In this document: one piece after another, positions 15,077-43,277 of the stretch | Position numbering within the stretch: the first letter of the stretch is position 1 | Layout: each line of letters begins with the position of its first letter | DNA from: an uncultured Anaerolineaceae bacterium | Lineage (GTDB): Bacteria > Chloroflexota > Anaerolineae > Anaerolineales > Anaerolineaceae | NCBI GenBank assembly: GCA_964435475.1 | Contig: CAYSZB010000003.1 | Span: 4,220 to 68,219, forward strand | Length of the DNA: 64,000 nucleotides | Reading direction: 5' to 3' | Notes under the pieces: model-generated | Told to the model about the DNA's origin: nothing | What the model saw: the letters and a program-made list of their open reading frames with translations, nothing else | The model's database searches: none | Program-made: the position numbers and the translations under genes

Positions 15077-15669
15077 GGGTTATTATCCGCCTTTTCCTTG
15101 ATTAACAGGTACGAACCTACCAGGACCAATCCCATATTGACAATTGCCAGCAAGCCAACGACCAAACTTGAAACCTCTAAAATTGAATAAAAGCTTTCGA
15201 ACCCCCAGAAGGCAGTGAGCAGTCCGGTGATGAGATAAAGGGGTTCCATGGTTAAAGCCAATTGCACCAAGCCAATAAGTATCAGGAAGCTTGCTGCAAG
15301 CAATGTAGCGCTGGGTACTGACACTGAAAATGCCAATCCAACATTCGTTATAGTAAATCCAACAATGGTGGCGACCAGTGCAACTACCAGGATACGGAAC
15401 ATTATCGATGAAAAAATTGTCTTTCCCCCATGACCATCTTTAAATTTTATGGAAAAGCAGGAAATACCAAGCACTGAACAACACATCCAACCAACAAGAA
15501 GTTTTATTACTACAACGCTGATAGGGACGGATGTTGAAATAATAATTGACATCGCCAGGTATTGTATAGCCAGGGCGATCAGGGTGAGCTTCCAGTTGTG
15601 AATGACCGTTGATATGACCGAAGAACTCAGGATCAAGGCCAGGGCGATCTGTAAAACAAAATCTGGCAT
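15073..15669 (-). CDS. polytopic membrane protein, unknown function
   Basis: 198 aa and almost entirely hydrophobic, with about 6 predicted helices by eye. It overlaps the downstream gene by 4 nt. Confidence 0.5.
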   Translation of the reverse strand: MPDFVLQIALALILSSSVISTVIHNWKLTLIALAIQYLAMSIIISTSVPISVVVIKLLVGWMCCSVLGISCFSIKFKDGHGGKTIFSSIMFRILVVALVATIVGFTITNVGLAFSVSVPSATLLAASFLILIGLVQLALTMEPLYLITGLLTAFWGFESFYSILEVSSLVVGLLAIVNMGLVLVGSYLLIKEKADNNP

Positions 15670-15673
15670 GAAA

Positions 15674-17278
15674 TCAATCTCCGATCCTTAAGAATGACAG
15701 GAGAAGTATGATGATAACAAATGCCCATAGAATTGCGCTATCGCCTTCGATAAATCTTGTTACTGTCAACACAAGATTACCGACTACCTGGTAAGTCCTT
15801 AAGAAAATGCTTTTTACCCAAGTCAATGAAAAGAAAGAATTCAAAAATTGAAAAAAGTTATGGATACGTTGATTGGCAATGACCTTCCTTTGAATTCCCA
15901 GGTTGACAGGAGAATTTCTTAGCTTGTTTCCTACAAAGAGCAAGGTAATTGCTAATAAAAGACCGACCATGCCCGCCCACCAAAAATCAGCGGAAAGCAC
16001 CCCAGGCCAACCAACGATCCCGAGGGCAATTTGGGTCTGGATAATAAAAATCAACCCTATTGGAAAACTGATCTTGGACCATGATTCAAGGTTCGTTGTC
16101 AATCCCTTTCCTGTCAAGAGGAACTTCATATAACCGGCAATGAGTAGGGAGTGGCTTGTCAAGGCAGATATTGATAAAAAAGAGATGCCTTGTCCGAAGA
16201 TACCCGGCCAGCCACTGCTGGCCATTGTGTAAGGTAAGGCAACCATTCCCAACAGTCCAGGAATCAACAAGAACCGCAAGCGTCTTATAGGTGGGTCAAA
16301 GAGCATCAATAGGCTGCCTGATAAGAGCAGGGCTAATCCCCAAGAGCGGCTAAATTCAGCCTGACCATTTATGGCACATATTATCGCCATCGCCGCCAAA
16401 GAAATATACCAGTAATGACTTGCTTCGTATAAGTTTTCCTTTAATAACCAAATTAATGCAGTTATGAAGACTACCAGGCCAATCATTATTTGGATCGGCA
16501 TCACCCAGTATGGCCTTATTGTGAAAGTCTCGGGGGGCATCCTTGCGATCAGACCCAGGCTGGACGCAATGGGTGCCAGTCGAAGCAGGATACCAGAACC
16601 TCTTCTTTCGTGTAGATCTTTGAAAAATGATGTATTGATGGAAAACACTCCAAGCCTTATGGCTCCTGCAATTAGAAAATAAACGCCGGAACGGTTTGGA
16701 ATGTCATCGATATCAAATTGACCGACATCCAACCAACCGACCATGGTAGCCCAGGAAAAAATGATCAGGCTCAGCACTCTCAGTGCGAAGAGAATGATGA
16801 TCTGGCGGTTCCACCTGTCGTTCTGTTGAATTGAAATAAGGTAGATAAATTCAATGATATCCACCAGTGCCCATGCAAGGACCATGGTAAGAGGGTTACC
16901 AGCCAGTAAAGCCATTAGACCGATGGCAGTAATTGCCATGCTGCCCGCCCAAGACATTGGATTGACGATGTCTTGGGCCCTTGCAGAATCTGTAAAAATG
17001 TAGGCAATCTCAATTGTCAATAACGCCATTGCGTACGGCCACGACACATAATCGATCATCAAGGATGGTGAAGCGTAAAAAAGGTTCGAAGGAGTCCAGT
17101 CGATCAATGGTACGTCAGTAGGCAGGAAGAAACGTAAATAGACAAGAATCAACCATGCGAAAAAGGTGCTTCCTGCAGCTATCAACCAGGTTAGACCGAT
17201 ACGCGACTTTAATCTGTAAATAATGGTTATGGCGATTGAGCCAAATATGAGCAAAAGGATGGGAATGAAAATCAACAT
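15674..17278 (-). CDS. polytopic membrane protein, possibly a degenerate antiporter-like subunit
   Basis: 534 aa. The LAWALVDIIEF and LIAGAIRLGVFSINTSF segments resemble Nuo L/M/N helices, but the PFH motif is lost. Confidence 0.5.
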   Translation of the reverse strand: MLIFIPILLLIFGSIAITIIYRLKSRIGLTWLIAAGSTFFAWLILVYLRFFLPTDVPLIDWTPSNLFYASPSLMIDYVSWPYAMALLTIEIAYIFTDSARAQDIVNPMSWAGSMAITAIGLMALLAGNPLTMVLAWALVDIIEFIYLISIQQNDRWNRQIIILFALRVLSLIIFSWATMVGWLDVGQFDIDDIPNRSGVYFLIAGAIRLGVFSINTSFFKDLHERRGSGILLRLAPIASSLGLIARMPPETFTIRPYWVMPIQIMIGLVVFITALIWLLKENLYEASHYWYISLAAMAIICAINGQAEFSRSWGLALLLSGSLLMLFDPPIRRLRFLLIPGLLGMVALPYTMASSGWPGIFGQGISFLSISALTSHSLLIAGYMKFLLTGKGLTTNLESWSKISFPIGLIFIIQTQIALGIVGWPGVLSADFWWAGMVGLLLAITLLFVGNKLRNSPVNLGIQRKVIANQRIHNFFQFLNSFFSLTWVKSIFLRTYQVVGNLVLTVTRFIEGDSAILWAFVIIILLLSFLRIGD

Positions 17279-29275: not shown

Positions 29276-30250
29276 CTAGCGGATGCGGAAGACGTCCCCG
29301 GGGTAGATGAAGTAAGGGTAGGTGAGGTTGTTCATGGCGGTGAACTGCTGCCAGGTGAGGTTATGTCTGGTGGCAAGGCCGACAAGTGTATCTCCTGCCT
29401 GGACAGTGATGAAGATGACGGGCGTGGCTGTCGGGGTAGGTGTGGCGGTGGGTGTGGGTGTTGCCGTGGAAGTGGGTGTCAGGGTGGGGGTGGGAGTTAG
29501 GGTTGGCGTGGGTGTTTGAGTGGGTGTAGACGTTATGGTGGGAGTAGGTGTTTGGGTTGGCGGGTCGGTTGGGGTGGGATCTGGGAAGTCCGCCAGGACA
29601 GCCTGGTTCTCAAGAACCGCCCATGATGACAGAAAATTATTCAGGTAATAGGTCTTTTCGGTGCCGGTGTAGGGGTCAATGGCGTAGATGATATCGCCAT
29701 CGTAGCCCTTGAGGATCATGGCATGCTCATAATGGGCGACGATAACCTGCCGACCTGCTTCAGTTGTATAGGTAATTTGGGTGCCATTCCACATTTCACT
29801 GATCACCCAGACGATGACCGGGTGGCCTGAGGCGATCTCCCACTGCAGGGTGGTCCAGTCGAGGTATTTTTGGGAATAGGCAGGCATGCCAAAGTCAGTC
29901 AACACCTGTGCCACAGGTTGTGAATGGACGCCGTAATCATAGGGTGGAATGCTGCCCCAGTAGCCGTTGATGTAGCCGACAAAACCGAGTTCAGGATCGT
30001 CGGAGGTCGGCATGGCATCGATGAACTGGTCTTCGGTGATGTAAACGCCAAAATAGGCAGCAAAATCAACGGCTGCGCGGGCTTCGCAGGAGAGGGTGTA
30101 TGCCTGGCGGTAACCATAAAGCCCTGAGATATATGCTTCTTCGGGCGGGGTGAATTGGGCTGAGACCGGTTTGGTAACCAGCGTTGCCAAAAACAGGAAG
30201 AGGCAGAGAAGGAGGGATATTTTTCGTCCTGGCGCAGTCATTTTCATCAT
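29276..30250 (-). CDS. secreted C39-like cysteine peptidase domain + Thr/Pro linker + C-terminal LysM domain
   Basis: A signal peptide starts at MMKMTAPGRKISLLLCLFLFLATLVTKPVSA. The candidate catalytic Cys is in YTLSCEARA and the His in YEHAMIL. A 55-aa TP-rich linker follows, then LysM (ITVQAGDTLVGLATRHNLTWQQFTAMNNL). I moved the start from 30319 to about 30250. Confidence 0.7.
   Translation of the reverse strand: MMKMTAPGRKISLLLCLFLFLATLVTKPVSAQFTPPEEAYISGLYGYRQAYTLSCEARAAVDFAAYFGVYITEDQFIDAMPTSDDPELGFVGYINGYWGSIPPYDYGVHSQPVAQVLTDFGMPAYSQKYLDWTTLQWEIASGHPVIVWVISEMWNGTQITYTTEAGRQVIVAHYEHAMILKGYDGDIIYAIDPYTGTEKTYYLNNFLSSWAVLENQAVLADFPDPTPTDPPTQTPTPTITSTPTQTPTPTLTPTPTLTPTSTATPTPTATPTPTATPVIFITVQAGDTLVGLATRHNLTWQQFTAMNNLTYPYFIYPGDVFRIR
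29420..29584 (-). repeat. low-complexity GGTGKG-type DNA encoding the (T/P)n linker
   Basis: It encodes PDPTPTDPPTQTPTPTITSTPTQTPTPTLTPTPTLTPTSTATPTPTATPTPTATP. Confidence 0.8.
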
Positions 30251-30381
30251 TATAGCTGAAGTAGATGCAATTATGGTGCCAGAGGTATTTGGATATCTTG
30301 CCAAATACGAGCAAACCATCCGTGCTACCTTGCTGGGAAGTGCGTTATGGGTTCTGGTATGAGGATGGTAAAGAAAAAAGT

Positions 30382-31813: not shown

Positions 31814-33400
31814 TTATCTGAAGATCAGGGGCAAAAATAGGTCATTCACAAGTTCATATTCATCAGCGCCAATGTCATAGGGGGTTGGACCAGAGCCGAT
31901 CGGCCTTATGCCTATCGTATCGATATCATCACCAGGTCCTTCTCCTAAAGACAGGCGATCGATAGCAGCAGAGCCTCTTAAGACATGCAGATCGCCATCA
32001 GACATGTTGACAAATTTCGGGTCACCATCAAACGGATTGGTACCGACTGAGCCATCACTGGAATTGCCAAAGAAGAGGTTTGATTCGATCGTGGCGGTTA
32101 CACCAGTGCCGAAATTATAGATCCCACCCTGACTGTGTGCAATGATGTTCTTTTTAATATATGGGTTGACATAGTCATTGATGTTGATCGCATCCACACC
32201 GCCAGCTATTGAATTCTGGTAAATGTACACAAGTAATTGGTCAGGACTGATTCCTACCAGATAAATATTCTTTTGGTTCACTCGCGAATCCCGAAGCGGA
32301 CTGTTGTAGGTAATGAAGTTGTTGCGGACTATATGGGAGTCCCTGCCCTCGAGGTGGATCAAGGAATCAGCAATGTTACCAGTAAAAACATTGCGTTCGA
32401 TGGTATTAAATGAACCACGGGATGGAGTCATAAAGCTGTGCAGGATGGTCCGACCGTAATTGCCTGAGATAAAGTTTTCTGCAAAGTAGAACGTGCTGCT
32501 GGACATCTCCAGGAAATAAACTGCCGCACCATCGATAGCGTTTTTCAGGTTGTTATTCTCAATAAAGGAATTACGATAGATTTCAAGATGCCCTGTTTGA
32601 TAGACAAGGATCGCACCTCCCCGACTGTAGTCAGATCCCGGTAAAGTATTCGCAGAAAAAACACACCCTGAGATGCCCCCTGTTGTTGGGACTGCTGCAC
32701 CTTCGACATAAATAGCACCGCCCATGCCAATCCCTGTTTGCCCGGAGGTGTTTTCGGTAAAGAGGGAGTCGTATATGAATAACTCATGCAGTTTATAAGC
32801 GTACAATGCACCGCCCATGGCAGTGCCCGCCCCGGTGGTATCCGAAGAAGCAACATTATGTTCAAAGGTGATATCTCCAAGGGTCAAGGACAGGATATCA
32901 TATGCGAAAATACCACCACCGCATCCCAGGGCAGGGGCACCACCTTTTAAGGGACAATAGCTGGTATTAATCCCATGGGCATCGCCGTTGCGGATCGTCA
33001 AACCGTTAAGATTGACATCCGTGTTTTCACCCTCGATGGTGATCACCCGGTGCATATTTTGTCCATCCAGGATACTCGGGGTAGTGGTGGGGGAACAATT
33101 GACATCACTTGCGCTGGTCCAGGTGCACCCGCCAAAAAGCGTAAATTGACCCTGGATATAAAGGACATGATGATCGCCAGAATCTTCAGCGTAGTAATTG
33201 CCTGAGTGTACATAAACGAAGTCGCCTGGTTGAGCTTTCTTGACCGCATATTGCAGGCTGCAGGGGGCATCGATGGTACAGTCTTCCCCTGAACCTTCTG
33301 GTGATGCATAGTACTGGACCCCGCGAGTCGCCTTTGCACTGGATAGCGAAAGTAATAAGAGCAAGACCAAGATGCTCAACAGTACAAGAAGTTTCTTCAT
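31814..33400 (-). CDS. secreted beta-helix-like protein, array paralog 1
   Basis: I use the ATG at 33400 (MKKLLVLLSILVLLLLLSLSSAKA), which has GGAGG upstream. Landmarks are APCSLQYAV, GCGGGIFA, GDLHV..GSAAID and DIGADEY. It ends in LFLPLIFR. Confidence 0.8.
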   Translation of the reverse strand: MKKLLVLLSILVLLLLLSLSSAKATRGVQYYASPEGSGEDCTIDAPCSLQYAVKKAQPGDFVYVHSGNYYAEDSGDHHVLYIQGQFTLFGGCTWTSASDVNCSPTTTPSILDGQNMHRVITIEGENTDVNLNGLTIRNGDAHGINTSYCPLKGGAPALGCGGGIFAYDILSLTLGDITFEHNVASSDTTGAGTAMGGALYAYKLHELFIYDSLFTENTSGQTGIGMGGAIYVEGAAVPTTGGISGCVFSANTLPGSDYSRGGAILVYQTGHLEIYRNSFIENNNLKNAIDGAAVYFLEMSSSTFYFAENFISGNYGRTILHSFMTPSRGSFNTIERNVFTGNIADSLIHLEGRDSHIVRNNFITYNSPLRDSRVNQKNIYLVGISPDQLLVYIYQNSIAGGVDAININDYVNPYIKKNIIAHSQGGIYNFGTGVTATIESNLFFGNSSDGSVGTNPFDGDPKFVNMSDGDLHVLRGSAAIDRLSLGEGPGDDIDTIGIRPIGSGPTPYDIGADEYELVNDLFLPLIFR

Positions 33401-33474
33401 GTTCACCTCCACAATTTCAATTACTGGCAATATGTAAAAACGTTCCAGGCAGGTATTTGGTTTGAACCACCTGC

Positions 33475-35037
33475 CTAGCGGAATAATAAGGGCAGGAATG
33501 TCAGACTAACAAATTCATCCGCGCCAAGATCTGAAGCACCAAATGTACGAGGTTGATAATCGATATCATTAATGACATTGAGAGTTTCCAATGCCATGTT
33601 AATCGCAGCAGAATTGGAACTTATGTGGAAGTCGCCATGCGCTGGATCTACCAGGCGCGGATTATGCGTATCGATCAAAGCATTGGTGCCTGTCCACCCG
33701 CCACCAAATGCCCAAAACAGGTTGCGGTCGATCTCTTCACCCACAGGCTCCGAGATATAGATCGCATCTTCATTAATAAATGCAAAGATATTATTCTTTA
33801 CAGTCATTGTTGAGACTTCACTTGCAGAAATCCCACGATCGAGTTTGGCAAAGGTGTTAAATTTAATATTAACTGAGGAATTCAGGTTTGATAAAGATAC
33901 AGCAGTATTCATTCCGCCCCTATCCGGATCGTCCTGCCGTAAGGTTTCAGCATGCCCGAAAAAATTATTTTGGATATTTGTCGGGTTATACCCTGTAATC
34001 TGAACCATATCCAGGGATGTGTTGTTCCAGAATTTATTATTTTCGATCTTATCCCAAGCCGTCGCGGTATCACGCGTTGAAGTGATCACACTGCTGCCCT
34101 GGTTACCCTCAAAATAGTTACCTGCCAACCCGAATTGCCCATTCATGCGGAAATATAATGCACTACCTTTTATTAACTTGGCCTCTTGAGAATTTCCAAG
34201 GGTGAATGCGTTCTGATAAACAAATAAATAGTAAGAGGAATTGAAGAATGCATGGCATCCCAGGCTGTCAGCATCTGTCATGGTACAGTCGTTCTGATGG
34301 AAATCGTTGAATTCTATTTGACCATATTCAGAAATATCTTGAACGAAAAGTCCTCCACCAAATCCCAAGCCGTTAACCGATGCAGTATTGTGAGCAATTT
34401 CATTGTAATCGAAGGTTAACGTATCGATATCTTCCAAATACACCCCACCGCCATATCCGGCAGTAAAAGGCGATAACGTGGCATCATTGCTTTTAATGTG
34501 GTTATTGCGCATTGTCAAGCTATCCAGGTTACTGGCATATAAACCTGCTCCACATCCTGATGTGGTGATCCCAACAGGGTTAAGATCGGTGGGGCAATCT
34601 GCAGTGTCGATCCCTTGGGCTTTCCCGTAAGAGATTGTCAGGTTGTAAAGTTGAACATTTTCAATGCCAGTTCCTTGTATGGTAATTCCCCGACGGGCAT
34701 TATCACCATCAATCAAAGTGGAAGGAATAGTATCTGGAATGCAATTCCAAAATGGACCACTGCATCCACCATAAATTTGCAGGCTTTTATCGATGAACAG
34801 AACTTGATCGCCTGATGCAGCTGTATAATTTCCCACTTGAATATATATTGTGTCACCACTTGCAGCTGATTTGGCAGCATGCTGCAAAGAACATGGATCT
34901 TCGGGGGTACAGGCATCAGTATTTGTACCTGCCATGGAAACGTACCAACTCGCTTCTGCCTGGACTTTATTTCTGGGAACGCCAAGCAGGGTGAGCAGGA
35001 AAATAAAGGTGAAGAAAAAGTTAATTAGCCGTTTCAT
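33475..35037 (-). CDS. secreted beta-helix-like protein, array paralog 2
   Basis: 520 aa with a signal peptide. Landmarks are DPCSLQHAA, GCGAGLYA, NNFFGH, GDFHI..NSAAIN and DLGADEF. It ends in TFLPLLFR. Confidence 0.8.
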   Translation of the reverse strand: MKRLINFFFTFIFLLTLLGVPRNKVQAEASWYVSMAGTNTDACTPEDPCSLQHAAKSAASGDTIYIQVGNYTAASGDQVLFIDKSLQIYGGCSGPFWNCIPDTIPSTLIDGDNARRGITIQGTGIENVQLYNLTISYGKAQGIDTADCPTDLNPVGITTSGCGAGLYASNLDSLTMRNNHIKSNDATLSPFTAGYGGGVYLEDIDTLTFDYNEIAHNTASVNGLGFGGGLFVQDISEYGQIEFNDFHQNDCTMTDADSLGCHAFFNSSYYLFVYQNAFTLGNSQEAKLIKGSALYFRMNGQFGLAGNYFEGNQGSSVITSTRDTATAWDKIENNKFWNNTSLDMVQITGYNPTNIQNNFFGHAETLRQDDPDRGGMNTAVSLSNLNSSVNIKFNTFAKLDRGISASEVSTMTVKNNIFAFINEDAIYISEPVGEEIDRNLFWAFGGGWTGTNALIDTHNPRLVDPAHGDFHISSNSAAINMALETLNVINDIDYQPRTFGASDLGADEFVSLTFLPLLFR

Positions 35038-35130
35038 TGTTTACCTCCAGTAAATGTGCTGAGATGCTTTGAATGACCTGTATTGGTGCACTTTGCGGGT
35101 TCAAGTTATTCGTATTTTGAGTATATGAAG

Positions 35131-35159
35131 ATAATATTCCTTTCTCACAGAAATATCAA
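35131..35159 (-). promoter_or_regulatory. candidate sigma70-type promoter for paralogs 2-1
   Basis: The minus strand reads cCTATTGATAT-N17-TATTAT. The -35 lies at 35154-35159 and the -10 at 35131-35136, about 95 nt upstream of the ATG. Confidence 0.4.
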
Positions 35160-35251
35160 TAGGCGAATGGGGAATATTCTTAAAATCGCATACACCCTTG
35201 ATCAATGATATGGCTGTCATTTATTGTGAAAGTCAAACTACATTTTATGCC

Positions 35252-36865
35252 TTATCTGAAAATCATGGGCAGGAAATAACTGTAATAACACTCATCCGCT
35301 CCAATATCCGGACCTGACCCAAATGGGCGCAACTGGAGGTCAATATCCCTGTCATAACGAAGGTCAAAAGCGGAATCAATTGCCCTGGAATTCGGTTGAA
35401 GATGGAAATCGCCATTATCCACATCCACGAAGTTAGGAAAATGATGGAGCAAGTTAGTCGTTGGAATGTCGCCGCCTGTGCCATTCATCGATTCAATGTT
35501 TGTAGTACCGGTGATACTAGGCGTTCCACCGCCGATGGTCGCATGAGAAAGCACAGCAGTATCTGTATAGGCAATAATGTTATTGGTAATATACGCGTCA
35601 ACAAAATCCCTGACATAGATTCCACGATCGAGCATGGCGATGGTATTGTGATACAACTCTGCATACATCCTATGTCCATAGATATATCCATCAAGGAAAA
35701 CACCAGTAAATGTTTTTTCATCTGTGTAGTCCGGACTATACCCGATAAAATTGTTACTTAGCCTTAAAAAGTCATGACCACTGACAGAAATAGCATTAGC
35801 AGCATAATTGTTCCAGAATTTATTCTGGCTGATATGGTCATATGTTGAATTTTCTGACATATAGGCAAATAGAACTGAGTTGCCCCTGTTCATTGTAAAA
35901 GTGTTTCGATATGCAAGGAACATACCGGTGAGATCAGAATAGATAGCCCCTCCTTCTTTACCAGTTTTGGTGTTGATCGGGATGTTGGAGTTGTTCATGT
36001 TAAATTTACTGTCAAGGATCTCGGCATAATTGGACTGGTTAATATGGATTGCACATCCTTCCCCGACATCATCTGTAAAACTGCAATGATTGGAATCAAA
36101 AATGTTGTATTTGAACTCATTCCAATCGCTTTGGGTCAATATTGCCCCACCATACCCGCTGCCATCACCCACAGCTGTGTTGCCATAAAAAGTTGAGTTC
36201 GTCACTGTGAGGGGACCGCTGTTTTGAAAATGGATGGCACCGCCAGTCCCCTGGAGATCTGAAATGGCTGTGGTATTAAAATATGCATAATTGCCCTGGA
36301 ACCAGCAATTGTCAATGCTCAATGTCAGGGTCCCGTTGGATAATGCATGGATCCCTCCACCACATCCAACCGGATCACCATTGCCATAATCATTGCAGTT
36401 TGACGTATTCGGATCTTCTGTTCCCAGACCATTGATGATCTTGAGGTTCCTGAATACAAAGGTCTCATTCCCAGAGGTCGATATTTTAATGACTCGCCCA
36501 TCACTTTGCCCATCCAGGATGGAATAACCATTGGCGACTGAACAAATGGCGGTGCCACTGGAAAAATTACAGCTACCGATGAGTTCAACGCTATCCCAAA
36601 GGATCACTACCTCACTGAAATTTTGATATGATGCAGAATAAGTTCCAGTTTTGATATAAATGATGGCATCATTAATGGTATCTTGATTGGACGAGTAGAC
36701 TGCACGCTCGAGAGAACATGGCTCCGAAATCGTACAAGCATCATCCCAAGTACCATCTGCTGCAGCATACAATACCAGGGTAACCGCTTGCACAGATTGC
36801 TGTGGGCTGGCTGATAGACCTGCCAGGCAGATCAGAATGAACATGCATGAGAATATTTTCTTCAT
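35252..36865 (-). CDS. secreted beta-helix-like protein, array paralog 3
   Basis: 537 aa with a signal peptide. Landmarks are EPCSLERAV, GCGGGIHA, NKFWNN, GDFHL..NSRAID and DIGADEC. It ends in YFLPMIFR. Confidence 0.8.
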   Translation of the reverse strand: MKKIFSCMFILICLAGLSASPQQSVQAVTLVLYAAADGTWDDACTISEPCSLERAVYSSNQDTINDAIIYIKTGTYSASYQNFSEVVILWDSVELIGSCNFSSGTAICSVANGYSILDGQSDGRVIKISTSGNETFVFRNLKIINGLGTEDPNTSNCNDYGNGDPVGCGGGIHALSNGTLTLSIDNCWFQGNYAYFNTTAISDLQGTGGAIHFQNSGPLTVTNSTFYGNTAVGDGSGYGGAILTQSDWNEFKYNIFDSNHCSFTDDVGEGCAIHINQSNYAEILDSKFNMNNSNIPINTKTGKEGGAIYSDLTGMFLAYRNTFTMNRGNSVLFAYMSENSTYDHISQNKFWNNYAANAISVSGHDFLRLSNNFIGYSPDYTDEKTFTGVFLDGYIYGHRMYAELYHNTIAMLDRGIYVRDFVDAYITNNIIAYTDTAVLSHATIGGGTPSITGTTNIESMNGTGGDIPTTNLLHHFPNFVDVDNGDFHLQPNSRAIDSAFDLRYDRDIDLQLRPFGSGPDIGADECYYSYFLPMIFR

Positions 36866-36887
36866 AGCTCCTCCAATGATTGTCTTC

Positions 36888-38537
36888 CTATTTGAAGAGA
36901 ATTGGTATAAAGGTTTGCAGGATCAGTTCGTCTGCTCCCAAGTCGTAGGGAGTGGCACTCACACCGAAGGGGCGGGCTTGCATGTCAATGTCCTCTGAAG
37001 GGACACCCAACCCGGAGGATGCCTTATCTGTTGCTGCTGAAGGGTAGGCAAGGTGAAAGTCACCCGTGGTGATATCCGCCAGGTTGGGATCGGCATAAAC
37101 GGGCATGGACCCGGTGTCACCATTGGCGAAGTTGTCCCAATACAGGTTTCTTACGACGGAAGTCGCGGCTCCACCGAATAAAGCTATGTTACTGATATGG
37201 GCGAATATATTGTTGTAAGCCTCGACCAGGACCATATCATCGCTGGAAAACCCGATATCCAGGGCTGCAAAAGTGTTATTGAAGATCCAGGCAGAGGTGT
37301 TGTCAGTTGGACCACCACTGGTGATCAGGCGAATGCCTGTCTGACCACCTCCACGATCCTGAAAGTCCCTGATTGGGATATTATGGCCAAAGAAGTTGTT
37401 GCGGATCATGACCCAATAGATACCTTCATAGTTCAGAAGGTAAAAAACATCATTATCCCAGAACTTGTTGCGTTCGAATACATCATCCGGGGTAGCGAAG
37501 TCATTCCATACCTCAACGGCTGAATAGCCGTAATTCCCAGTAAAAGTATTGGTCAGGAGCTTCAGCCCACCACTGTTATTGACATAGATGGCACTGCCAT
37601 GCAATGGCTGGGGCGTCGTTGGATTGTTGCTGTCTTCGAACTGGTTATAAGCGACAGCAGCCGTTGGGGTGTTGAGGATGAAAAGCCCACATCCCTTATC
37701 AGTTGTGGTGGTACCTGATTGTCCGCAATCATTTTCCAAAAAATGGTTGCCTTTGATCTCGATTTTGCCAACCCCGCCAGGGTTTCCGGCCAGGGCGATG
37801 GCACCACCATAGCCCCTACCAGCGACATATGCCTGGTTGGAATTGAACTCGTTGTTCCTGATGTGAATGTCGCTTACATCCTGCAGGTAAATTGCACCGC
37901 CGTACCCAACGCCAGGTGCGCCGGCAAGAGGTTGCTGAGCACCAGAGTTATCATAAAAGAAGCAATTTTCGATGGTCAAAGATGCCAACTGGTTGGCATA
38001 AATGCCACCACCGCAGCCCACAGTTACACCAGTACCATCGCTGTAACACGGTAAATCATTGATGATCCCATCACCAATGCCCCGTACTATGTGCAGATTT
38101 CTTAGGGTCACAGAAGGGCGAAATGCCTTGCTGCCCTGGATGGTTATAACACGGGTAAAAGGCCAGACCGGATCATGGTGAGGGTCGCCATCAAAGATGG
38201 AACTGGTATACTGGTAACCCAATTCACACGTTGAATAATCTTCGTTGCAGCCCCCGATGATGGTCAGGCTTTTATCAATGTAAAGTACCTCATCATCGGT
38301 GCTGTCATGAACAACATAAGGTCCATATCTTAGGTAGATGGTATCGCCATTGCCTGCCAGGTCAACGGCATCCCAGAGAGAGCATTCGTTGCCAATGGTA
38401 CAGTTATCTGCTCCAACCGGTCCAGCAGCAGCATACCAGGTGTCCGGGACAGCTTTTACTGGCAGGGGTTGAGAAGCAAGAATTATCAGGATAAGAAAGG
38501 CTGCGATATTGAATAAGTAGCGTGATGACTTGATCAT
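36888..38537 (-). CDS. secreted beta-helix-like protein, array paralog 4
   Basis: 549 aa with a signal peptide. Landmarks are NECSLWDAV, GCGGGIYA, NKFWDN, NNFFGH, GDFHL and DLGADEL. It ends in TFIPILFK. Confidence 0.8.
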   Translation of the reverse strand: MIKSSRYLFNIAAFLILIILASQPLPVKAVPDTWYAAAGPVGADNCTIGNECSLWDAVDLAGNGDTIYLRYGPYVVHDSTDDEVLYIDKSLTIIGGCNEDYSTCELGYQYTSSIFDGDPHHDPVWPFTRVITIQGSKAFRPSVTLRNLHIVRGIGDGIINDLPCYSDGTGVTVGCGGGIYANQLASLTIENCFFYDNSGAQQPLAGAPGVGYGGAIYLQDVSDIHIRNNEFNSNQAYVAGRGYGGAIALAGNPGGVGKIEIKGNHFLENDCGQSGTTTTDKGCGLFILNTPTAAVAYNQFEDSNNPTTPQPLHGSAIYVNNSGGLKLLTNTFTGNYGYSAVEVWNDFATPDDVFERNKFWDNDVFYLLNYEGIYWVMIRNNFFGHNIPIRDFQDRGGGQTGIRLITSGGPTDNTSAWIFNNTFAALDIGFSSDDMVLVEAYNNIFAHISNIALFGGAATSVVRNLYWDNFANGDTGSMPVYADPNLADITTGDFHLAYPSAATDKASSGLGVPSEDIDMQARPFGVSATPYDLGADELILQTFIPILFK

Positions 38538-38577
38538 TTATCCTCCAGAAACAAGTAGACTGAATCTCGTTAAGTAA

Positions 38578-40149
38578 TCATTTAAACAGGATCGGCAGGT
38601 AGGTTTGTTTTATGAACTCGTCTGCACCCAGGTCATAAGGAGTAGCACCGACTCCAAAAGGACGTGCCTGGTTATCAATATCATTGATCTCAGCAAATGA
38701 AAGTGTGTAAGTTCCCTGATTAATAGCTGCTGAATTGATTGCTATATGAAAATCGCCGTTCATTGGATCTGCCAGGAGTGGGTCTCCCCAAGCGGGATCG
38801 GTTCCTCCCATACTATCACCTGGGAAGGCATTATGAAACAGATTACGGATGATCTGTCCACTTGATACTCCGGTTATTGCACTTCCGTATATTTCTGCAA
38901 AAATATTGTTCTGGATCGTGCCACCAGCTAAGGTATCGGTGATGACCCCGTAGTCCAATATCGCAAATGTATTAAAATATATCGCTGCTGAACCTGACCC
39001 ATTATCATTTTCGTACATGTAAATCCCCGTTTGCCCACCACTGCGGGTCTTGTCCCGGGTGGGGCTAGTTGGTTTTTGCCCGATCCAATTGTTCATGATG
39101 CGGGCACCAAAGTAACCGGTGTATTCGATGACATTTAATACCTGGTTGTCCAGAAATTTATTTCGCAACACTCTATCCAATGGGGTTGGGTCGTATGAAT
39201 CAACCATTAAGACGGATTTGCCGTTTTCGTTGGAAAATGTATTTTCAATAATGTCAGTGCCTGAGGTATAGCCCACAAAGATCGATCCGCCTTCGTAGTT
39301 ATAGGCTGGTCCCAGATTATTATTATTACTGAATAAATTCCCAACAATATCGAAATAATGACTACCTATGTATATCGCACAACCCTGACTGCCAGGTCCG
39401 TTTAGAGGGCTGCAGTTATTTGAGTCAAACAGGTTGTTGCTGATAACAAGATCGTAACTTGGTGAGGAGGAGCCGGTGAATATTGCACCACCATACCCTA
39501 TCCCATCATTAACTGCTGTGTTATCAAGAAACTGATTGTCACTGATATTAATGTGGTTTCCTCCAAAAACAGCCATGGCTCCTCCATGGCCTTCATATAT
39601 TGCGCCAACGCCAACCTTCCTGGCAGCAAAATTCTGGTAAAACTTACATTCCGTGACATCCAGGGACTCGAATAATGTTGCATTTAGTCCACCCCCAACC
39701 CCTTTCAACGTAGCTATTTCAGTAGCATTGCCATGTGCTATGTCAAAAAACCTTAACGAAACCGAGATATTATTACCAGCTGCTCCCGTGATGGTAATAA
39801 CGCGCCGTTCCAGCTCACCATCCAATATGGATGAGGGGTTCTTAGCAGAGCAGGTCGCAGTCAGTCCTGAAAATGAGCAGCGTCCCACCAGGCTGAGATC
39901 CTTATTGATTAATAATACCTGAGCAGCCTTTGACGTGTAGGTTCCGGACTCAACATAAACCGTATCTCCTGACCCGGCAATATCCACAGCATGCTGCAAG
40001 GTACAGGGAGAAATAAGCGGGCAAGTTGGGTTGGTTGCCGAGCCGGTAGGAGAAGCATAATGATCGGTAAACGCTGAGACTGGTCGAACGGTATTTGAAA
40101 TAGCCAGAATCATCATTCCCAAGGTCGCGATAATGATCAACTTTTTCAT
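38578..40149 (-). CDS. secreted beta-helix-like protein, array paralog 5
   Basis: 523 aa with a signal peptide. Landmarks are SPCTLQHAV, GVGGGLNA, GDFHI..NSAAIN and DLGADEF. It ends in TYLPILFK. Confidence 0.8.
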   Translation of the reverse strand: MKKLIIIATLGMMILAISNTVRPVSAFTDHYASPTGSATNPTCPLISPCTLQHAVDIAGSGDTVYVESGTYTSKAAQVLLINKDLSLVGRCSFSGLTATCSAKNPSSILDGELERRVITITGAAGNNISVSLRFFDIAHGNATEIATLKGVGGGLNATLFESLDVTECKFYQNFAARKVGVGAIYEGHGGAMAVFGGNHINISDNQFLDNTAVNDGIGYGGAIFTGSSSPSYDLVISNNLFDSNNCSPLNGPGSQGCAIYIGSHYFDIVGNLFSNNNNLGPAYNYEGGSIFVGYTSGTDIIENTFSNENGKSVLMVDSYDPTPLDRVLRNKFLDNQVLNVIEYTGYFGARIMNNWIGQKPTSPTRDKTRSGGQTGIYMYENDNGSGSAAIYFNTFAILDYGVITDTLAGGTIQNNIFAEIYGSAITGVSSGQIIRNLFHNAFPGDSMGGTDPAWGDPLLADPMNGDFHIAINSAAINQGTYTLSFAEINDIDNQARPFGVGATPYDLGADEFIKQTYLPILFK

Positions 40150-40280
40150 GAGATTCTCCTTTGGTAGAAGAAAACAAAATTGTTGAATATAGATTACAAA
40201 TGGTTGATGAAAGAACTCCCCTTATCCTTTGAACGGTGAAAAATCACAGAACATAATTGGGTAAAGGTATTGATACATTT

Positions 40281-40309
40281 ATATTAGCACTTAACATTTG
40301 GGATTTCAA
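40281..40309 (-). promoter_or_regulatory. candidate sigma70-type promoter for paralogs 5-4-3
   Basis: The minus strand reads gCTATTGAAATCC-N-TAATAT, that is TTGAAA-N17-TAATAT. The 12-mer ggatttcaatag (40301-40312) is repeated at 42243-42254. Confidence 0.4.
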
Positions 40310-40482
40310 TAGCCAATATGTGAATTTCGGATTGATAAGTTTGTCTAATCAATATTATTATTTGAAGGTGAAGAGCTCATTTTTAGGAAGGGATAACCCT
40401 CATAATACAAAAATACTGGTTGTACAGGGATTCACAAGACACATTTCAAAATTTGTGACTGACTGATGGTTTATTAATGAAG

Positions 40483-42084
40483 TTATCTAAACACAACTGG
40501 CATAAAAGTCTGCAACATGAACTCATCAGCCCCGACATCATAATTGTCCGGTTCGACGCCGACGGGGCGTATCTGTCCATCAATGTCGACCCCGCCCTGC
40601 CATGAGAAGACCTTATCAATGGCAGCTGAACCTGGCTGGATGTGATAATCACCTGAATCTGGATCGGCCAAGAGTGGATCGCCGGTAAAAAATTCCGTAC
40701 CAAATGTTCCATAAGGGGAATTATCATGAAATAGATTCTTTGTTATGGTAAAAGTTGTGGTTGGTGGAAAAATCAGATAAATAGCTGCTTCATCAAGAAT
40801 TTGAGTAAATATATTTCTTTCAATATTGATGTCCGAGTTTTCATCTACCGCTACCCCAACGCTCAATTTTACAAAGGTGTTATAACCGACATACACATCC
40901 GGATTACCGTTAGTAGTATCGCCTAAAGTGTAGATACCTATGAAGTAGCCATGCCACTCAGCAGGATTGTTTGTCCCAACAAAGTTATTCATGAACATTA
41001 CTTCCGCATCACCCAAAACTTCGAGATTAATGTATGTGTCTTCGCGGACGATCTTGTTCATTTGCATGCCTACTATCGTGTTGCCGTCGCCGATACCTTC
41101 GATAAGAATAGATGACAGACCATAATTGCTATGGAACTCGTTATTTTGTATGTAAGCATATTTGGTGTGTTTAAAATAAATAGAACTGCCATAAACATTA
41201 CGTCGAAGGATATTCTCCTGCCAAAGGAAGTCATTATTTACCACCAATATATCTTCAGAATCAACTGCCAGGATTGCTGCCCCCATGGCATCCAACTTTT
41301 CTTTATTACCGGTCAGCTCATTGCCATAAAACAGGTTATCTTCGATCAGAACACCATCGATCGCGCCTGAATCTTCAATGTAGATCCCACCACCATAGCC
41401 CTTGCCCTGCCTGGCTGCCTGGTTAAATTGGAAGGTGTTATTTTTTACAACGAGATGTCCAACCTGCTCCGAATAGAGTCCGCCTCCCAGGGATACAGCA
41501 GTTGTGGTGTCACTGCGGCCGGCGAAATTTGCCCAGATGAAATTATTTCGCAATTCCAGGTGGTCGACTCCCTCAGCAAAGATGCCACCTCCACAACCCA
41601 GGACAGGTGCGCCAAAGGCGGTGGAACAGGACCCTGGACCGACCCCTTCAGCGTTGCCCTGCAAAATGGTGAAGCCTTCGATGGTGACTGTCATGCCGTC
41701 GCCGGGAAGTCCCTGGATGGCGATGCCACGCATGGTGTTCTCGGCGCGGATGTTGGAGGTATAAGTCTCCGGGTGGCAGGTGACCGGCCCTGTAACTGCC
41801 CACTCACAGGAGCCTATGATATGCAAGCTTTTGTAAATGTACATAACATAGCTGTCAGACGAAAAGGGGGCATAATAATTCCCGGATTTTGCCAGGATAG
41901 TATCCCCACTGGACGATTTCATCTGAACTGCGTTGTCAATCTTGCATGGGTTTGCCTGGGAACAATCGCCACCACTTCCGGCCGGAGAGACATACCAGGT
42001 ATTGACTGCCCTTGGGGCTTCGAGGGGAGCAAAAGATAGCTGGCTCAACAGGAGAACCAGGATCAACACAAACGATTTTTTCAT
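40483..42084 (-). CDS. secreted beta-helix-like protein, array paralog 6
   Basis: 533 aa with a signal peptide. Landmarks are NPCKIDNAV, GCGGGIFA, GDYHI..GSAAID and DVGADEF. It ends in TFMPVVFR. Confidence 0.8.
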   Translation of the reverse strand: MKKSFVLILVLLLSQLSFAPLEAPRAVNTWYVSPAGSGGDCSQANPCKIDNAVQMKSSSGDTILAKSGNYYAPFSSDSYVMYIYKSLHIIGSCEWAVTGPVTCHPETYTSNIRAENTMRGIAIQGLPGDGMTVTIEGFTILQGNAEGVGPGSCSTAFGAPVLGCGGGIFAEGVDHLELRNNFIWANFAGRSDTTTAVSLGGGLYSEQVGHLVVKNNTFQFNQAARQGKGYGGGIYIEDSGAIDGVLIEDNLFYGNELTGNKEKLDAMGAAILAVDSEDILVVNNDFLWQENILRRNVYGSSIYFKHTKYAYIQNNEFHSNYGLSSILIEGIGDGNTIVGMQMNKIVREDTYINLEVLGDAEVMFMNNFVGTNNPAEWHGYFIGIYTLGDTTNGNPDVYVGYNTFVKLSVGVAVDENSDINIERNIFTQILDEAAIYLIFPPTTTFTITKNLFHDNSPYGTFGTEFFTGDPLLADPDSGDYHIQPGSAAIDKVFSWQGGVDIDGQIRPVGVEPDNYDVGADEFMLQTFMPVVFR

Positions 42085-42221: not shown

Positions 42222-42251
42222 ATAATAACATTAATTGATGGTGGATTTCAA
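42222..42251 (-). promoter_or_regulatory. candidate sigma70-type promoter for paralog 6
   Basis: The minus strand reads aCTATTGAAATCC, that is TTGAAA-N18-TATTAT. It sits about 135-160 nt upstream of the ATG at 42084. Confidence 0.4.
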
Positions 42252-42269: not shown

Positions 42270-43277
42270 ATGAGCAAACCTGATTTGACCTTCTTTTGTG
42301 AATTGGAAGCAGCGCCCCTGGAGAAATTCTTCCAGGATCGCTTCATCATGGATGACCTGAAGGCCTTAAATGCCCGCTTGAGCCTGGGCATCCTGGACCT
42401 TTCGGATGAGCGTGCCCAGGTGGTTAAAAAGCTTAACAAGCTGGGAGTGAAGGTGATCGCCTGGCTTTTGCTGCCGAAAAACGAAGGTTACTGGTTCAAC
42501 CTGGATAACCATCCACAGGCTGTGGCGCGCTATGAGGCTTTTAAAGCCTGGAGCGCGGCAAACGAGTTGAAGTGGGATGGCATCGGTCTGGACATTGAAC
42601 CGGACATCAACACCTTCCAGGAGACACGTCACAAGAAGCTCGCCATGCTGCCGGAACTCTTCAAACGGCTTTTGGATGGCAGGCGGGTCAGGCAGGCACA
42701 GGAGGCTTACCGCAAGCTGGTTGAGCAGATGCACGCTGATGGTTTCTATGTAGAGTCATACCACCTGCCATTGATCATCGATGAACGCAAAGCGCACTCT
42801 ACGGTCATACAGCGCCTGGCGGGGTTGGTCGACCTGGAGGTGGATCATGAAGTGCTGATGCTCTATTCGAGCTTCATGCGTCCGCATGGTCAGGAGATCC
42901 TCTGGCAGTACGCCAAAGAGGCGGACTCGGTAGGAATTGGTAACACGGGCGGTGGGGTTGACCTTGAGGGTGTGATCGACGTGCCCCCGCTGAGCTGGGA
43001 GGAGTTTTCGAAGGACCTGAGGCTGGCGCATGCCAGCGGCAAGCCAGTGCACATCTTCTGCCTGGAGGGGTGCGTGGCACAGGGCTTTCTGGAAAAGTTG
43101 TCTACTTTTAACTGGGATGAAAAGGAGGTGGCACCCGGCAGCCTGCTGGTCAGAACGGGGCGGGGGATCCTGCAGACGGTGTTGTGGAACATGCAGAGGC
43201 CCTGGGTGTTGCCGGTGACACTCCTGGGGGTGATCGGTGGCATCCTGGTCATTAGAGACAGGAAGAAACGACAATAA
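42270..43277 (+). CDS. hypothetical protein with C-terminal TM anchor (possible divergent TIM-barrel glycosidase-like fold)
   Basis: 335 aa with AAGGAAG SD. DGIGLDIEPD resembles the DGxDxDxE-type strand of GH18-like barrels. The C-terminus is WVLPVTLLGVIGGILVIRDRKKRQ. Confidence 0.5.
   Translation: MSKPDLTFFCELEAAPLEKFFQDRFIMDDLKALNARLSLGILDLSDERAQVVKKLNKLGVKVIAWLLLPKNEGYWFNLDNHPQAVARYEAFKAWSAANELKWDGIGLDIEPDINTFQETRHKKLAMLPELFKRLLDGRRVRQAQEAYRKLVEQMHADGFYVESYHLPLIIDERKAHSTVIQRLAGLVDLEVDHEVLMLYSSFMRPHGQEILWQYAKEADSVGIGNTGGGVDLEGVIDVPPLSWEEFSKDLRLAHASGKPVHIFCLEGCVAQGFLEKLSTFNWDEKEVAPGSLLVRTGRGILQTVLWNMQRPWVLPVTLLGVIGGILVIRDRKKRQ

What the first reader, a model, noticed from the sequence alone, without database searches (positions are those of the whole stretch)
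31814..42084. Tandem array of six divergent paralogs encoding secreted ~520-550 aa beta-helix-like proteins
Six consecutive minus-strand genes fill 10.3 kb, about one sixth of the window. They lie at 31814-33400, 33475-35037, 35252-36865, 36888-38537, 38578-40149 and 40483-42084.

Each gene has a strong GGAGG or AGGAG SD. Each protein has a Sec-type signal peptide ending in an AxA-like site, for example MKKLLVLLSILVLLLLLSLSSAKA and MKKLIIIATLGMMILAISNTVRPVSA.

The same ordered landmarks recur in all or most copies:
- PC(S/T)L..A followed by GD(T/F)(I/V)Y..xG.Y near the N-terminus
- (L/F)DG....R(V/G)I(T/K)I
- GCGGG(I/L) in 4 of 6 copies (GCGAGL in paralog 2, GVGGGL in paralog 5)
- repeated GYGGA(I/L)-type turns
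- NKFW(N/D)N and NNF(F/I)G
- GDFH(L/I)...S.AI(D/N), DID.Q.RP.G and D(I/L/V)GADE

The sequence between the landmarks is poorly conserved. These therefore look like old duplicates kept side by side, not a recent amplification.

The composition and repeat pattern fit a right-handed parallel beta-helix. From memory, the GDFHL..SPAID..DIDGQPR..DIGAxE ending resembles the NCBIfam choice-of-anchor Q type of domain.

No catalytic site can be read from the window. No dedicated exporter, sortase or regulator is visible either.
Basis: partly seen in the sequence, partly recalled or inferred. Interest (0 to 1): 0.75.

Follow-up and report, generated by a model that had tools for sequence, protein, structure and literature searches.

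The report
Six old beta-helix surface-protein paralogs
An uncultured Anaerolineaceae (Chloroflexota) genome carries six anciently duplicated genes for exported beta-helix proteins, each ending in a tiny hydrophobic tail related to a database-flagged but untested "YLP-box" sorting motif; they are uncharacterised members of a very large known superfamily, not a new kind of system.

Summary
Six adjacent minus-strand genes (31814-42084) encode 520-549 aa proteins with signal peptides and Shine-Dalgarno sites. Pairwise identity is 28-37% (E 1e-27 to 1e-77), and there are no further copies in the window.

AlphaFold2 gives a confident right-handed beta-helix (pLDDT 86.8, pTM 0.87). Pfam Beta_helix passes its cut-off in 4 of 6. 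The choice-of-anchor Q match stays below cut-off (15-18 vs 25 bits, 3 of 6).

The duplications are old. Each paralog has closer orthologs in other metagenomes (46-80%) than among its neighbours. The same syntenic site holds 2, at least 4, about 4, about 5, or 6 copies in relatives.

All six end in [FY][LIM]P[LIMV][LIV]F[RK]-COOH. This is a divergent form of the Chloroflexota "YLP-box" (NCBIfam NF050076/NF053834, "putative sorting motif"). In homologues that tail also follows unrelated domains, and in other phyla its place is taken by T9SS, dockerin or TM-anchor signals.

The helix body has no invariant catalytic-type residue. Fold matches are generic (TM below 0.5).

The superfamily is huge (54,747 cluster representatives), and tandem clusters recur in other Chloroflexota. 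My best reading is non-enzymatic, envelope-retained surface proteins. Interest is moderate to low.

The parts
31814..33400 (-). Paralog 1, 528 aa: signal peptide, N-cap, beta-helix, C-cap, tail LFLPLIFR
   Evidence: ORF. GGAGG lies upstream of the ATG at 33400; a TTG at 33430 is a less likely start. Pfam Beta_helix 34.6 bits. Closest orthologs elsewhere: 71% in L002 and 47% in L001.
33475..35037 (-). Paralog 2, 520 aa; tail TFLPLLFR
   Evidence: Pfam Beta_helix 42.8 bits and NosD 26.7 bits. Ortholog P0011 is 75.5% identical.
35252..36865 (-). Paralog 3, 537 aa; tail YFLPMIFR
   Evidence: NCBIfam choice_anch_Q 18.4 bits, below the cut-off of 25. Chlam_PMP repeat 17.4 bits, below the cut-off of 20.6.
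36888..38537 (-). Paralog 4, 549 aa; tail TFIPILFK; the most conserved copy across relatives
   Evidence: Orthologs at 56-80% identity. AF2 models. Pfam Beta_helix 45.3 bits.
38578..40149 (-). Paralog 5, 523 aa; tail TYLPILFK
   Evidence: Sister to paralog 4 in the NJ tree, with ortholog P0022 at 61%. choice_anch_Q 15.1 bits.
40483..42084 (-). Paralog 6, 533 aa; tail TFMPVVFR
   Evidence: Pfam Beta_helix 60.5 bits. Ortholog P0013 is 70% identical.
31817..31837 (-). C-terminal tail of paralog 1 (FLPLIFR), YLP-box-like
   Evidence: Regex scan. The tail class is enriched at C-termini: 80 of 238 homologues against 20 internal matches in 425,190 aa.
33478..33498 (-). C-terminal tail of paralog 2 (FLPLLFR)
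35255..35275 (-). C-terminal tail of paralog 3 (FLPMIFR)
36891..36911 (-). C-terminal tail of paralog 4 (FIPILFK)
   Evidence: AF2 leaves residues 541-549 at a mean pLDDT of about 50, while the cap before them scores 80-86.
38581..38601 (-). C-terminal tail of paralog 5 (YLPILFK)
40486..40506 (-). C-terminal tail of paralog 6 (FMPVVFR)
42222..42251 (-). Promoter-like site upstream of paralog 6 (tentative)
   Evidence: TTGAAA-18-TATTAT with a TG extension. The total count of such sites in the region is not above shuffles, so this is weak evidence.
40281..40309 (-). Promoter-like site in the 333-nt gap upstream of paralog 5 (tentative)
   Evidence: TTGAAA-17-TAATAT with TG. It suggests a paralog 5-4-3 transcription unit, with gaps of 40 and 22 nt between those genes.
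35131..35159 (-). Promoter-like site in the 214-nt gap upstream of paralog 2 (tentative)
   Evidence: TTGATA-17-TATTAT. It suggests a paralog 2-1 transcription unit.

Best explanation
The six genes encode a lineage-restricted subfamily, from uncultured Anaerolineaceae (Chloroflexota), of single-module right-handed parallel beta-helix proteins.

Each protein has these parts, in order:
- a Sec-type signal peptide;
- an N-terminal cap (PCSLxxA ... GDTIY);
- a helix body held together by Gly turns and an Asn ladder, with GGA[IL]/FxxN-type repeats like those of Chlamydia Pmp passengers;
- a conserved acidic C-terminal cap (GDFH...S.AID...DIDxQxRP...D[LI]GADE, the choice-of-anchor Q type);
- a 7-residue tail [FY][LIM]P[LIMV][LIV]F[RK]-COOH.

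Inferred mechanism. The proteins are exported by Sec and fold outside the cytoplasmic membrane, with paired Cys residues and a pI of 4.3-4.6. The tail then retains or routes them at the cell envelope. The tail is the local variant of the Chloroflexota 'YLP-box' ultrashort C-terminal motif. At the envelope the proteins act as non-catalytic binding, adhesion or structural surface proteins.

The paralogs have diverged everywhere except the scaffold residues, so together they present six different surfaces on one fold.

Shown: the genes, the paralogy, the fold, the age of the duplications, copy-number variation between relatives, and the modularity and C-terminal specificity of the tail class.

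Inferred: export, envelope retention through the tail, and the lack of enzymatic activity.
For: - **Genes and paralogy:**
- **Fold:** Pfam Beta_helix in 4 of 6; AF2 pLDDT 86.8, pTM 0.87, with strands from residue 33 to 496; Foldseek returns only beta-helix proteins.
- **Taxon:** Mfd is 70-73% identical to Anaerolineaceae MAGs.
- **Old duplications:** orthologs at 46-80% identity against 28-37% between neighbours; no long DNA repeats.
- **Copy number at the same syntenic site** (between a 335-aa ORF and rsmG): 2 in L083/L084, at least 4 in L089/L090, about 4 in L001, about 5 in L002, and 6 in the window.
- **Tail specificity:** present in all six. 80 of 238 homologues carry it within the last 12 residues, against 20 internal matches in 425,190 aa.
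- **Tail modularity:** 21 of those 80 follow a last domain without the GADE cap, which by inspection of ten of them look PKD-, CARDB-, DUF11- or Ig-like.
- **Tail on other proteins:** FG-GAP, GH43-related and unknown proteins in other Chloroflexota loci also carry it.
- **Match to curated models:** canonical versions hit NCBIfam NF050076 'sort_motif_YLP' and NF053834 'ultrashort_CTERM'.
- **Same position as known anchors:** homologues from other phyla end instead in T9SS domains, dockerins or TM-plus-basic anchors.
- **Tail flexibility:** it is not confidently docked in AF2, while the preceding cap is.
- **No shared active site:** invariant residues in the helix body (residues 130-485) are only G, N, A, F, I and P, with no D, E, K, R or H.
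- **Envelope context:** Chloroflexota filaments have outer and proteinaceous envelope layers of unknown composition and lack BAM and LPS markers (PMC13319060).
Against: - The six window tails give no hit to either NCBIfam YLP-box model, even at E<=10. Their assignment rests on position and on alignment with homologues that do hit.
- The YLP-box itself is only a 'putative' sorting motif. I found no experimental paper on it.
- No processing enzyme is encoded nearby.
- Lack of invariant catalytic residues among 28-37% identical paralogs does not exclude enzymes with different active sites.
- The best structural neighbours are carbohydrate-active enzymes.
- A sugar transporter (MFS_2) and a YdjC-like gene lie next to the array.
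- Signal peptides were judged by eye and by a hydrophobicity heuristic only.
Confidence: 0.5

Rival explanations
1. The six proteins are a battery of secreted polysaccharide-degrading enzymes (beta-helix lyases or glycoside hydrolases) with different substrate specificities. They would feed oligosaccharides to the adjacent MFS_2 transporter and YdjC-like enzyme.
For: The top Foldseek matches are GH136 lacto-N-biosidases, PL6 and PL9 lyases, RbmB and phage depolymerases. There is a weak Pfam Pel9A-like hit at the N-cap of paralog 5 (E 4.8e-4) and a Pectate_lyase_4 hit at E 0.04. The MFS_2 sugar transporter and YdjC are conserved next to the array.
Against: All fold matches have TM-scores of 0.15-0.48 and 8-14% identity, which is generic beta-helix similarity. 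No CAZyme-type family reaches its cut-off. No acidic or basic residue is invariant in the helix body across 16 family members. The whole region is syntenic housekeeping, so adjacency to the transporter is not specific.
Confidence: 0.25
2. The hydrophobic tail is only the last structural element of the C-terminal cap, or an oligomerisation strand, and not a sorting or anchoring signal. The proteins are released freely.
For: The window tails fail the NCBIfam YLP-box models. With 7-11 uncharged residues they are too short for a membrane anchor. There is no sorting enzyme nearby.
Against: The same tail class follows unrelated last domains, which look PKD-, CARDB- or DUF11-like by eye, in giant proteins. 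It also follows FG-GAP and GH43-related proteins. It sits where other phyla place T9SS, dockerin or TM anchors. AF2 models the cap confidently but not the tail.
Confidence: 0.15
3. The array is a contingency or antigenic-variation set, like the Chlamydia pmp gene families. One or a few paralogs would be expressed at a time to vary the cell surface against phages or grazers.
For: There are GGA[IL]/FxxN-type repeats and sub-threshold Chlam_PMP hits. The paralogs are tandem with divergent surfaces. Copy number varies between close relatives. There may be three separate promoters.
Against: There are no simple-sequence tracts, invertible elements or gene-conversion tracts. The duplicates are old and orthologs are stably kept. 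There are no expression data.
Confidence: 0.1

Closest known systems
NCBIfam 'choice-of-anchor Q domain-containing' / 'CSLREA domain-containing' / 'right-handed parallel beta-helix repeat-containing' proteins (uncharacterised superfamily)
   Same: The order of parts is the same: an N-cap with a PCSLxxA-like motif, GGxGGA[IL]-type coils, and a C-terminal GDFHL..SPAID..D[IL]DG..R..D[IL]GA.E cap. More distant homologues found with the family profile carry exactly these names.
   Different: The window proteins score below the NF041518 cut-off (15-18 vs 25 bits, 3 of 6) and give no CSLREA hit. They form a narrow clade: a word-indexed search of 5.8 billion proteins scored only its 8,000 best candidates and found 18 with E<=1e-5.
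YLP-box putative sorting motif (NCBIfam NF050076 sort_motif_YLP; NF053834 ultrashort_CTERM)
   Same: Both are an ultrashort hydrophobic tail at the very C-terminus of signal-peptide proteins, with the pattern aromatic-L/M-P-hydrophobic x3-R/K and an invariant Pro. Family homologues at the same alignment position carry canonical [IV]YLPL[VI][LM][RK] tails that hit these models.
   Different: The window version has F or Y at the first position, F before the final R/K, and ends exactly at R/K. It gives no hit to either model. The function of the YLP-box is untested; no paper was found.
Chlamydia polymorphic membrane proteins (Pmp; Pfam PF02415 repeats on a beta-helix passenger)
   Same: Both have GGA[ILV]/FxxN-type repeats on a right-handed beta-helix, form multigene paralog families partly in tandem, and are presumed surface or adhesin proteins (family properties from general knowledge; repeat counts).
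   Different: There is no autotransporter beta-barrel, since each protein ends 7 residues after the cap. The PF02415 hits are sub-threshold (15.6 and 17.4 vs 20.6 bits). According to PMC13319060, Chloroflexota lack BAM.
Beta-helix carbohydrate-active enzymes (GH136 LnbX/BsaX, PL6, PL9 Pel9A, RbmB, phage tailspike depolymerases)
   Same: They share the overall right-handed beta-helix fold and are the best Foldseek matches (E 5e-9 to 1e-3).
   Different: TM-scores are at most 0.48 and identity is 8-14%. No family HMM passes its cut-off. No conserved catalytic-type residue is found in the helix body.

Membership tests
Pfam Beta_helix (PF13229), right-handed parallel beta-helix | HMM score above the gathering cut-off (25.9 bits) and a beta-helix fold | tested here: met
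   Scores of 34.6, 42.8, 45.3 and 60.5 bits for paralogs 1, 2, 4 and 6. Paralogs 3 and 5 are not reported but are 28-37% identical to the others. The AF2 model is a beta-helix with pTM 0.87.
NCBIfam NF041518 choice-of-anchor Q domain | HMM score of at least 25 bits over the 58-position C-terminal domain | tested here: not met
   Scores of 18.4, 15.1 and 15.7 bits for paralogs 3, 5 and 6. There is no hit at E<=0.1 for paralogs 1, 2 and 4. The motif is visibly present in all six.
NCBIfam YLP-box (NF050076 / NF053834) | HMM hit to the 10-11 residue C-terminal motif (cut-offs 15 and 10 bits) | tested here: not met
   The six window tails give no hit at E<=10. Homologue tails score 12.1-17.6 bits.
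NCBIfam YLP-box (NF050076 / NF053834) | Motif located at the extreme C-terminus of a signal-peptide protein, independent of the preceding domain | tested here: met
   The tail is the last 7 residues in all six. The tail class shows 80 C-terminal against 20 internal matches, and 21 of 80 follow a last domain without the GADE cap. 69 of 76 tail-bearing proteins that start with Met have an N-terminal hydrophobic segment.
Chlamydia Pmp / autotransporter | PF02415 repeats above cut-off and a C-terminal autotransporter beta-barrel | tested here: not met
   PF02415 scores 15.6 and 17.4 bits against a cut-off of 20.6. There is no sequence beyond the cap except the 7-residue tail.
Beta-helix polysaccharide lyases and hydrolases (PL1/3/6/9, GH28/GH136) | Family HMM match and conserved catalytic acid/base or Ca-binding residues in the helix groove | tested here: not met
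   Only sub-threshold Pel9A-like (19.6 vs 25.2 bits, N-cap only) and Pectate_lyase_4 (13.9 vs 24 bits) hits. The helix body has no invariant D, E, K, R or H. Enzyme activity itself cannot be tested here.
NosD (TIGR04247 / PF05048) | HMM above cut-off (300 bits for TIGR04247, 23.6 bits for PF05048) and nos operon context | tested here: not met
   TIGR04247 scores 12-22 bits. PF05048 passes only in paralog 2 (26.7 bits), as generic beta-helix similarity. There are no nos genes nearby.
Sortase (LPXTG) / exosortase (PEP-CTERM) type sorting signals | Motif followed by a transmembrane helix and a basic cluster; cognate enzyme gene in the genome | tested here: not met
   The tail has only 7-11 uncharged residues, then one R/K and the stop codon. 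No sortase- or exosortase-like gene lies within the window neighbourhood. The rest of the genome is not available.

The most novel reading that the evidence does not exclude
The [FY]LPxxF[RK] / YLP-box tail is a genuine sorting or attachment signal of a mechanistically new kind: it has no transmembrane segment and only about 8 residues. An as yet unidentified machinery in Chloroflexota would recognise it. Under this reading the six paralogs are cargo that build or decorate the outer proteinaceous layer of the multicellular filament, whose composition is currently unknown.
Probability: 0.3. Interest if true: 0.7.

Novelty: new member of a known kind. Interest (0 to 1): 0.35.

Why it matters
The array itself is an ordinary expansion of a very large, uncharacterised family of beta-helix surface proteins.

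Its value is as a clean example. It offers six small, single-module, clearly paralogous cargo proteins carrying a variant of the Chloroflexota ultrashort C-terminal motif.

How Chloroflexota build and populate their atypical multilayered envelope is an open question (PMC13319060). Compact cargoes like these would suit experiments on whether the tail is a sorting signal and what recognises it.

Tried and rejected
- **Characterised enzyme family.** Rejected. Pfam and NCBIfam give only generic or sub-threshold hits. The PDB sequence search gives one weak hit, to an unnamed 'parallel beta-helix repeat protein' 9rx2 (E 1.5e-4). Foldseek TM-scores are below 0.5.
- **Recent amplification or gene conversion.** Rejected.
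- **Tail as an LPXTG or PEP-CTERM-type signal, or as an outer-membrane-protein beta-signal.** Rejected. There is no TM segment. F is penultimate rather than terminal, and homologues carry 0-4 extra residues after the R/K. Chloroflexota are reported to lack BAM.
- **Searches of named genomes and JGI metagenome contigs for paralog 4 relatives.** They found nothing. An alignment of the six paralogs was too divergent to seed a locus search.
- **Rfam.** It found no RNA family in the window.
- **Literature searches.** Searches for YLPL-type peptides, 'YLP-box' and 'choice-of-anchor Q' found nothing relevant.
- **Neighbouring genes.** NCBIfam and Pfam on the 335-aa ORF and other neighbouring unknown ORFs gave no lead to a sorting enzyme.


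Full report
**1. Observation**

The six minus-strand ORFs are at the stated coordinates: 31814-33400, 33475-35037, 35252-36865, 36888-38537, 38578-40149 and 40483-42084. Each ATG is preceded by GGAGG, GGAGGA or AGGAG. Each product begins with a basic N-terminus, a hydrophobic segment and an AxA-like site.

All-against-all tblastn gives 27.6-36.9% identity over nearly the full length, with E values from 1.9e-27 to 9e-77. There is no seventh copy in the 64 kb window.

Paralog 6 is the most deviant at the N-cap.

DNA-level repeats are only 18-57 nt matches at 60-90% identity that recur roughly once per gene. Two of the families read as the reverse complement of the conserved GYGGA and GCGGG motifs.

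**2. The missed feature: a shared C-terminal tail**

All six proteins stop seven residues after a short linker that follows GADE. The tail pattern is [FY][LIM]P[LIMV][LIV]F[RK].

**3. Fold and family**

- Pfam Beta_helix (PF13229) passes its cut-off in paralogs 1, 2, 4 and 6.
- NCBIfam choice-of-anchor Q is only sub-threshold: 15.1-18.4 bits against a cut-off of 25, in paralogs 3, 5 and 6.
- NosD, Chlam_PMP, Pel9A-like and Pectate_lyase_4 hits are weak or sub-threshold.

An AF2 model of paralog 4 built on 16 sequences gave pLDDT 78.5, with the last 45 residues unresolved. With 36 sequences the model improved to pLDDT 86.8 and pTM 0.87. It shows a continuous beta-helix from about residue 33 to 496 and a C-terminal cap at pLDDT 80-86. 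The last nine residues, which include the tail, stay near pLDDT 50.

Foldseek against the PDB returns only right-handed beta-helix proteins: GH136 lacto-N-biosidases, PL6 and PL9 lyases, RbmB, phage depolymerases and the adhesin PfbA. TM-scores are 0.15-0.48 and identity is 8-14%. A profile search of PDB sequences finds only one weak hit, to an unnamed 'parallel beta-helix repeat protein' (9rx2, E 1.5e-4).

Across 16 family members, the invariant positions inside the helix body (residues 130-485 of paralog 4) are 14 Gly, 10 Asn, and one each of Ala, Phe, Ile and Pro. There is no invariant Asp, Glu, Lys, Arg or His. The invariant charged residues lie in the N-cap (D65, R129) and above all in the C-cap (H495, D516, D518, R522, D532, D536, E537).

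The mature proteins are acidic (pI 4.3-4.6). Three Cys positions are invariant across the 16 family members, and most of the other Cys positions recur among the six paralogs.

**4. Organism and distribution**

The window's Mfd protein is 70-73% identical to that of uncultured Anaerolineaceae MAGs, several of them from anaerobic reactors. Identity falls steadily through the rest of Chloroflexota.

The close family is narrow. A word-indexed search of 5.8 billion proteins scored only its 8,000 best candidates. It found 18 with E<=1e-5, all from metagenomes and unnamed.

An exhaustive HMMER search with the family profile shows that the superfamily is very large. It counts 54,747 cluster representatives at E<=1e-3, 14,825 at 1e-10 and 1,565 at 1e-30. 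The best 150 are of two kinds:
- about 50 single-module proteins of 490-560 aa;
- giant proteins of 1,000-7,000 aa that contain up to 27 matched stretches.

More distant members are named by their sources as choice-of-anchor Q, CSLREA, 'predicted outer membrane repeat', right-handed parallel beta-helix repeat, or T9SS sorting-domain proteins.

**5. History of the array**

The same site, between a conserved 335-aa ORF and rsmG, holds different numbers of copies in relatives:

| Locus | Copies |
|---|---|
| L083/L084 | 2 |
| L089/L090 | at least 4 (contig ends) |
| L001 | about 4 |
| L002 | about 5 |
| Window | 6 |

In both L001 and L002 one copy is fragmented. In L002 this may be assembly error, because folD is also split there.

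In a neighbour-joining tree each window paralog groups with orthologs from other samples. Their identities are 77-80% for paralog 4, 75% for paralog 2, 70% for paralog 6, 61% for paralog 5 and 46-71% for paralog 1. No window paralog groups with a window neighbour.

The duplications therefore predate the divergence of these relatives, and copies have since been gained or lost.

More distant Chloroflexota also have clusters. L087 has four genes of 564-574 aa within about 12.6 kb, three of them clustered at 5.7-13.5 kb around an FG-GAP protein; two of the four hit Pfam Beta_helix.

Tandem expansion of this family is therefore not unusual.

**6. The tail**

Among 238 collected homologues, 80 carry [YF][LIMV]P[LIMVF]xx[RK] within the last 12 residues. 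The same pattern occurs only 20 times in 425,190 internal residues. The R/K is followed by 0-4 residues.

In 59 of the 80 the tail follows the GADE cap. In the other 21 it follows a last domain that lacks the cap. Read by eye in ten of those giant proteins, that domain looks PKD-, CARDB-, DUF11- or Ig-like.

In other Chloroflexota loci the tail VYLPLV[LM]R.. also ends an FG-GAP protein, a GH43-related protein and a 720-aa unknown protein.

Canonical tails hit two NCBIfam models, NF050076 'sort_motif_YLP' and NF053834 'ultrashort_CTERM'. Both are described as 'YLP-box putative sorting motif-containing protein'.

The six window tails give no hit to either model, even at E<=10. They are a divergent variant, recognised by position and by alignment with homologues that do hit.

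Homologues outside Chloroflexota end at the equivalent place in T9SS C-terminal domains, dockerins or TM-plus-basic anchors. That is the pattern behind the 'choice-of-anchor' name, and it argues that the tail occupies an anchor or sorting position.

With 7-11 uncharged residues the tail cannot span a membrane.

I found no paper on the motif.

**7. Context**

The neighbours are ordinary genes:
- rsmG, two DedA/VTT proteins and folD;
- a secreted C39-like peptidase with a LysM domain;
- an MFS_2 sugar transporter and a YdjC-like protein;
- a GT2 glycosyltransferase and an amidohydrolase.

Further upstream are selB, PLP-dependent enzymes and unknown ORFs.

No exporter, sortase or regulator is present. 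Rfam finds nothing in the window.

The array genes have GC3 of 0.41-0.53, against 0.55-0.72 in the flanking genes. This is unexplained, given that the array is old and syntenic.

The gene spacing (333, 40, 22, 214 and 74 nt) and three promoter-like sites in the larger gaps suggest three transcription units. The promoter scan as a whole is not above shuffled expectation.

**8. Interpretation**

My best reading, at about 0.5 confidence, is this. The proteins are Sec-exported, non-catalytic beta-helix surface proteins with a binding, adhesion or structural role. A YLP-box-type tail retains or routes them at the envelope, and the paralogs have diversified in their exposed surfaces.

A cryo-ET study of the Caldilineae member Litorilinea aerophila describes an outer layer of unknown composition decorated by a putative proteinaceous layer, and notes that Chloroflexota lack BAM and LPS markers (PMC13319060). 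That leaves room for such cargo but does not identify it.

The rivals are:
- a battery of polysaccharide-degrading enzymes (0.25);
- a tail that is merely structural (0.15);
- a Pmp-like variable surface set (0.1).

**9. Novelty and score**

The fold, the superfamily, the cap and the tail class are all already represented in curated databases, although none has been studied experimentally. Tandem clusters are common.

The window adds a well-defined, lineage-specific six-copy array with a variant tail that current models miss. I classify it as a new member of a known kind and score its interest at about 0.35.

The most novel reading still open is that the tail is a true sorting signal without a transmembrane segment, served by unknown machinery. 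I give that a probability of about 0.3.

Noticed in passing
window 31814-42084 versus flanks; also window 12361-17278: The array genes have GC3 of 0.41-0.53, while flanking housekeeping genes have 0.55-0.72. A second low-GC3 block covers three ORFs without a passing family hit (397-aa coiled-coil-like, 198 aa, 534 aa) and a 469-aa Proton_antipo_M membrane protein (PF00361, above cut-off). The cause is unknown.
   Followed up: partly
window 42270-43277 (+): This 335-aa ORF has no Pfam or NCBIfam hit and ends in a hydrophobic segment plus a basic cluster (…LLGVIGGILVIRDRKKRQ). It is divergently adjacent to the array in every syntenic relative: L001, L002, L083/84 and L089/90.
   Followed up: partly
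window 29276-30319 (-): A secreted Peptidase_C39_2-like domain is joined by a long Thr/Pro-rich linker to a C-terminal LysM domain. It is conserved next to rsmG in relatives. A link to tail processing is pure speculation.
   Followed up: no
proteins P0031-P0165, e.g. P0031, P0038, P0052, P0057: Giant proteins of 1,000-7,000 aa contain up to 27 stretches matching the same beta-helix module. Many end in canonical [IV]YLPLVLRN-type tails after last domains that look PKD-, CARDB- or DUF11-like by eye. Another subset ends in Pro/Thr-rich 'GPRPTPTP' sequences.
   Followed up: partly
protein P0216 (Anaerolineae bacterium): It ends in 'WLPLLVMGLVLVGGSGVVFGRKQ', which is an LPL motif followed by a full transmembrane segment and a basic cluster. 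It may be a long form of the same signal.
   Followed up: no
L001 11908-13514; L002 12184-13381 and 18943-19833: One array copy is fragmented into short ORFs in each of these contigs. In L002, folD and an amidohydrolase are also split, so the fragments may be frameshift errors of the assembly rather than pseudogenes.
   Followed up: no
window 10450-12351 (-): A selB gene (selenocysteine-specific elongation factor) is present, implying selenoprotein use in this Anaerolineaceae genome.
   Followed up: no
L087 5705-13487; L085 8-3727 and 8672-10861: In more distant Chloroflexota, YLP-box proteins of different folds sit together in clusters: beta-helix, FG-GAP, GH43-related and unknown.
   Followed up: partly
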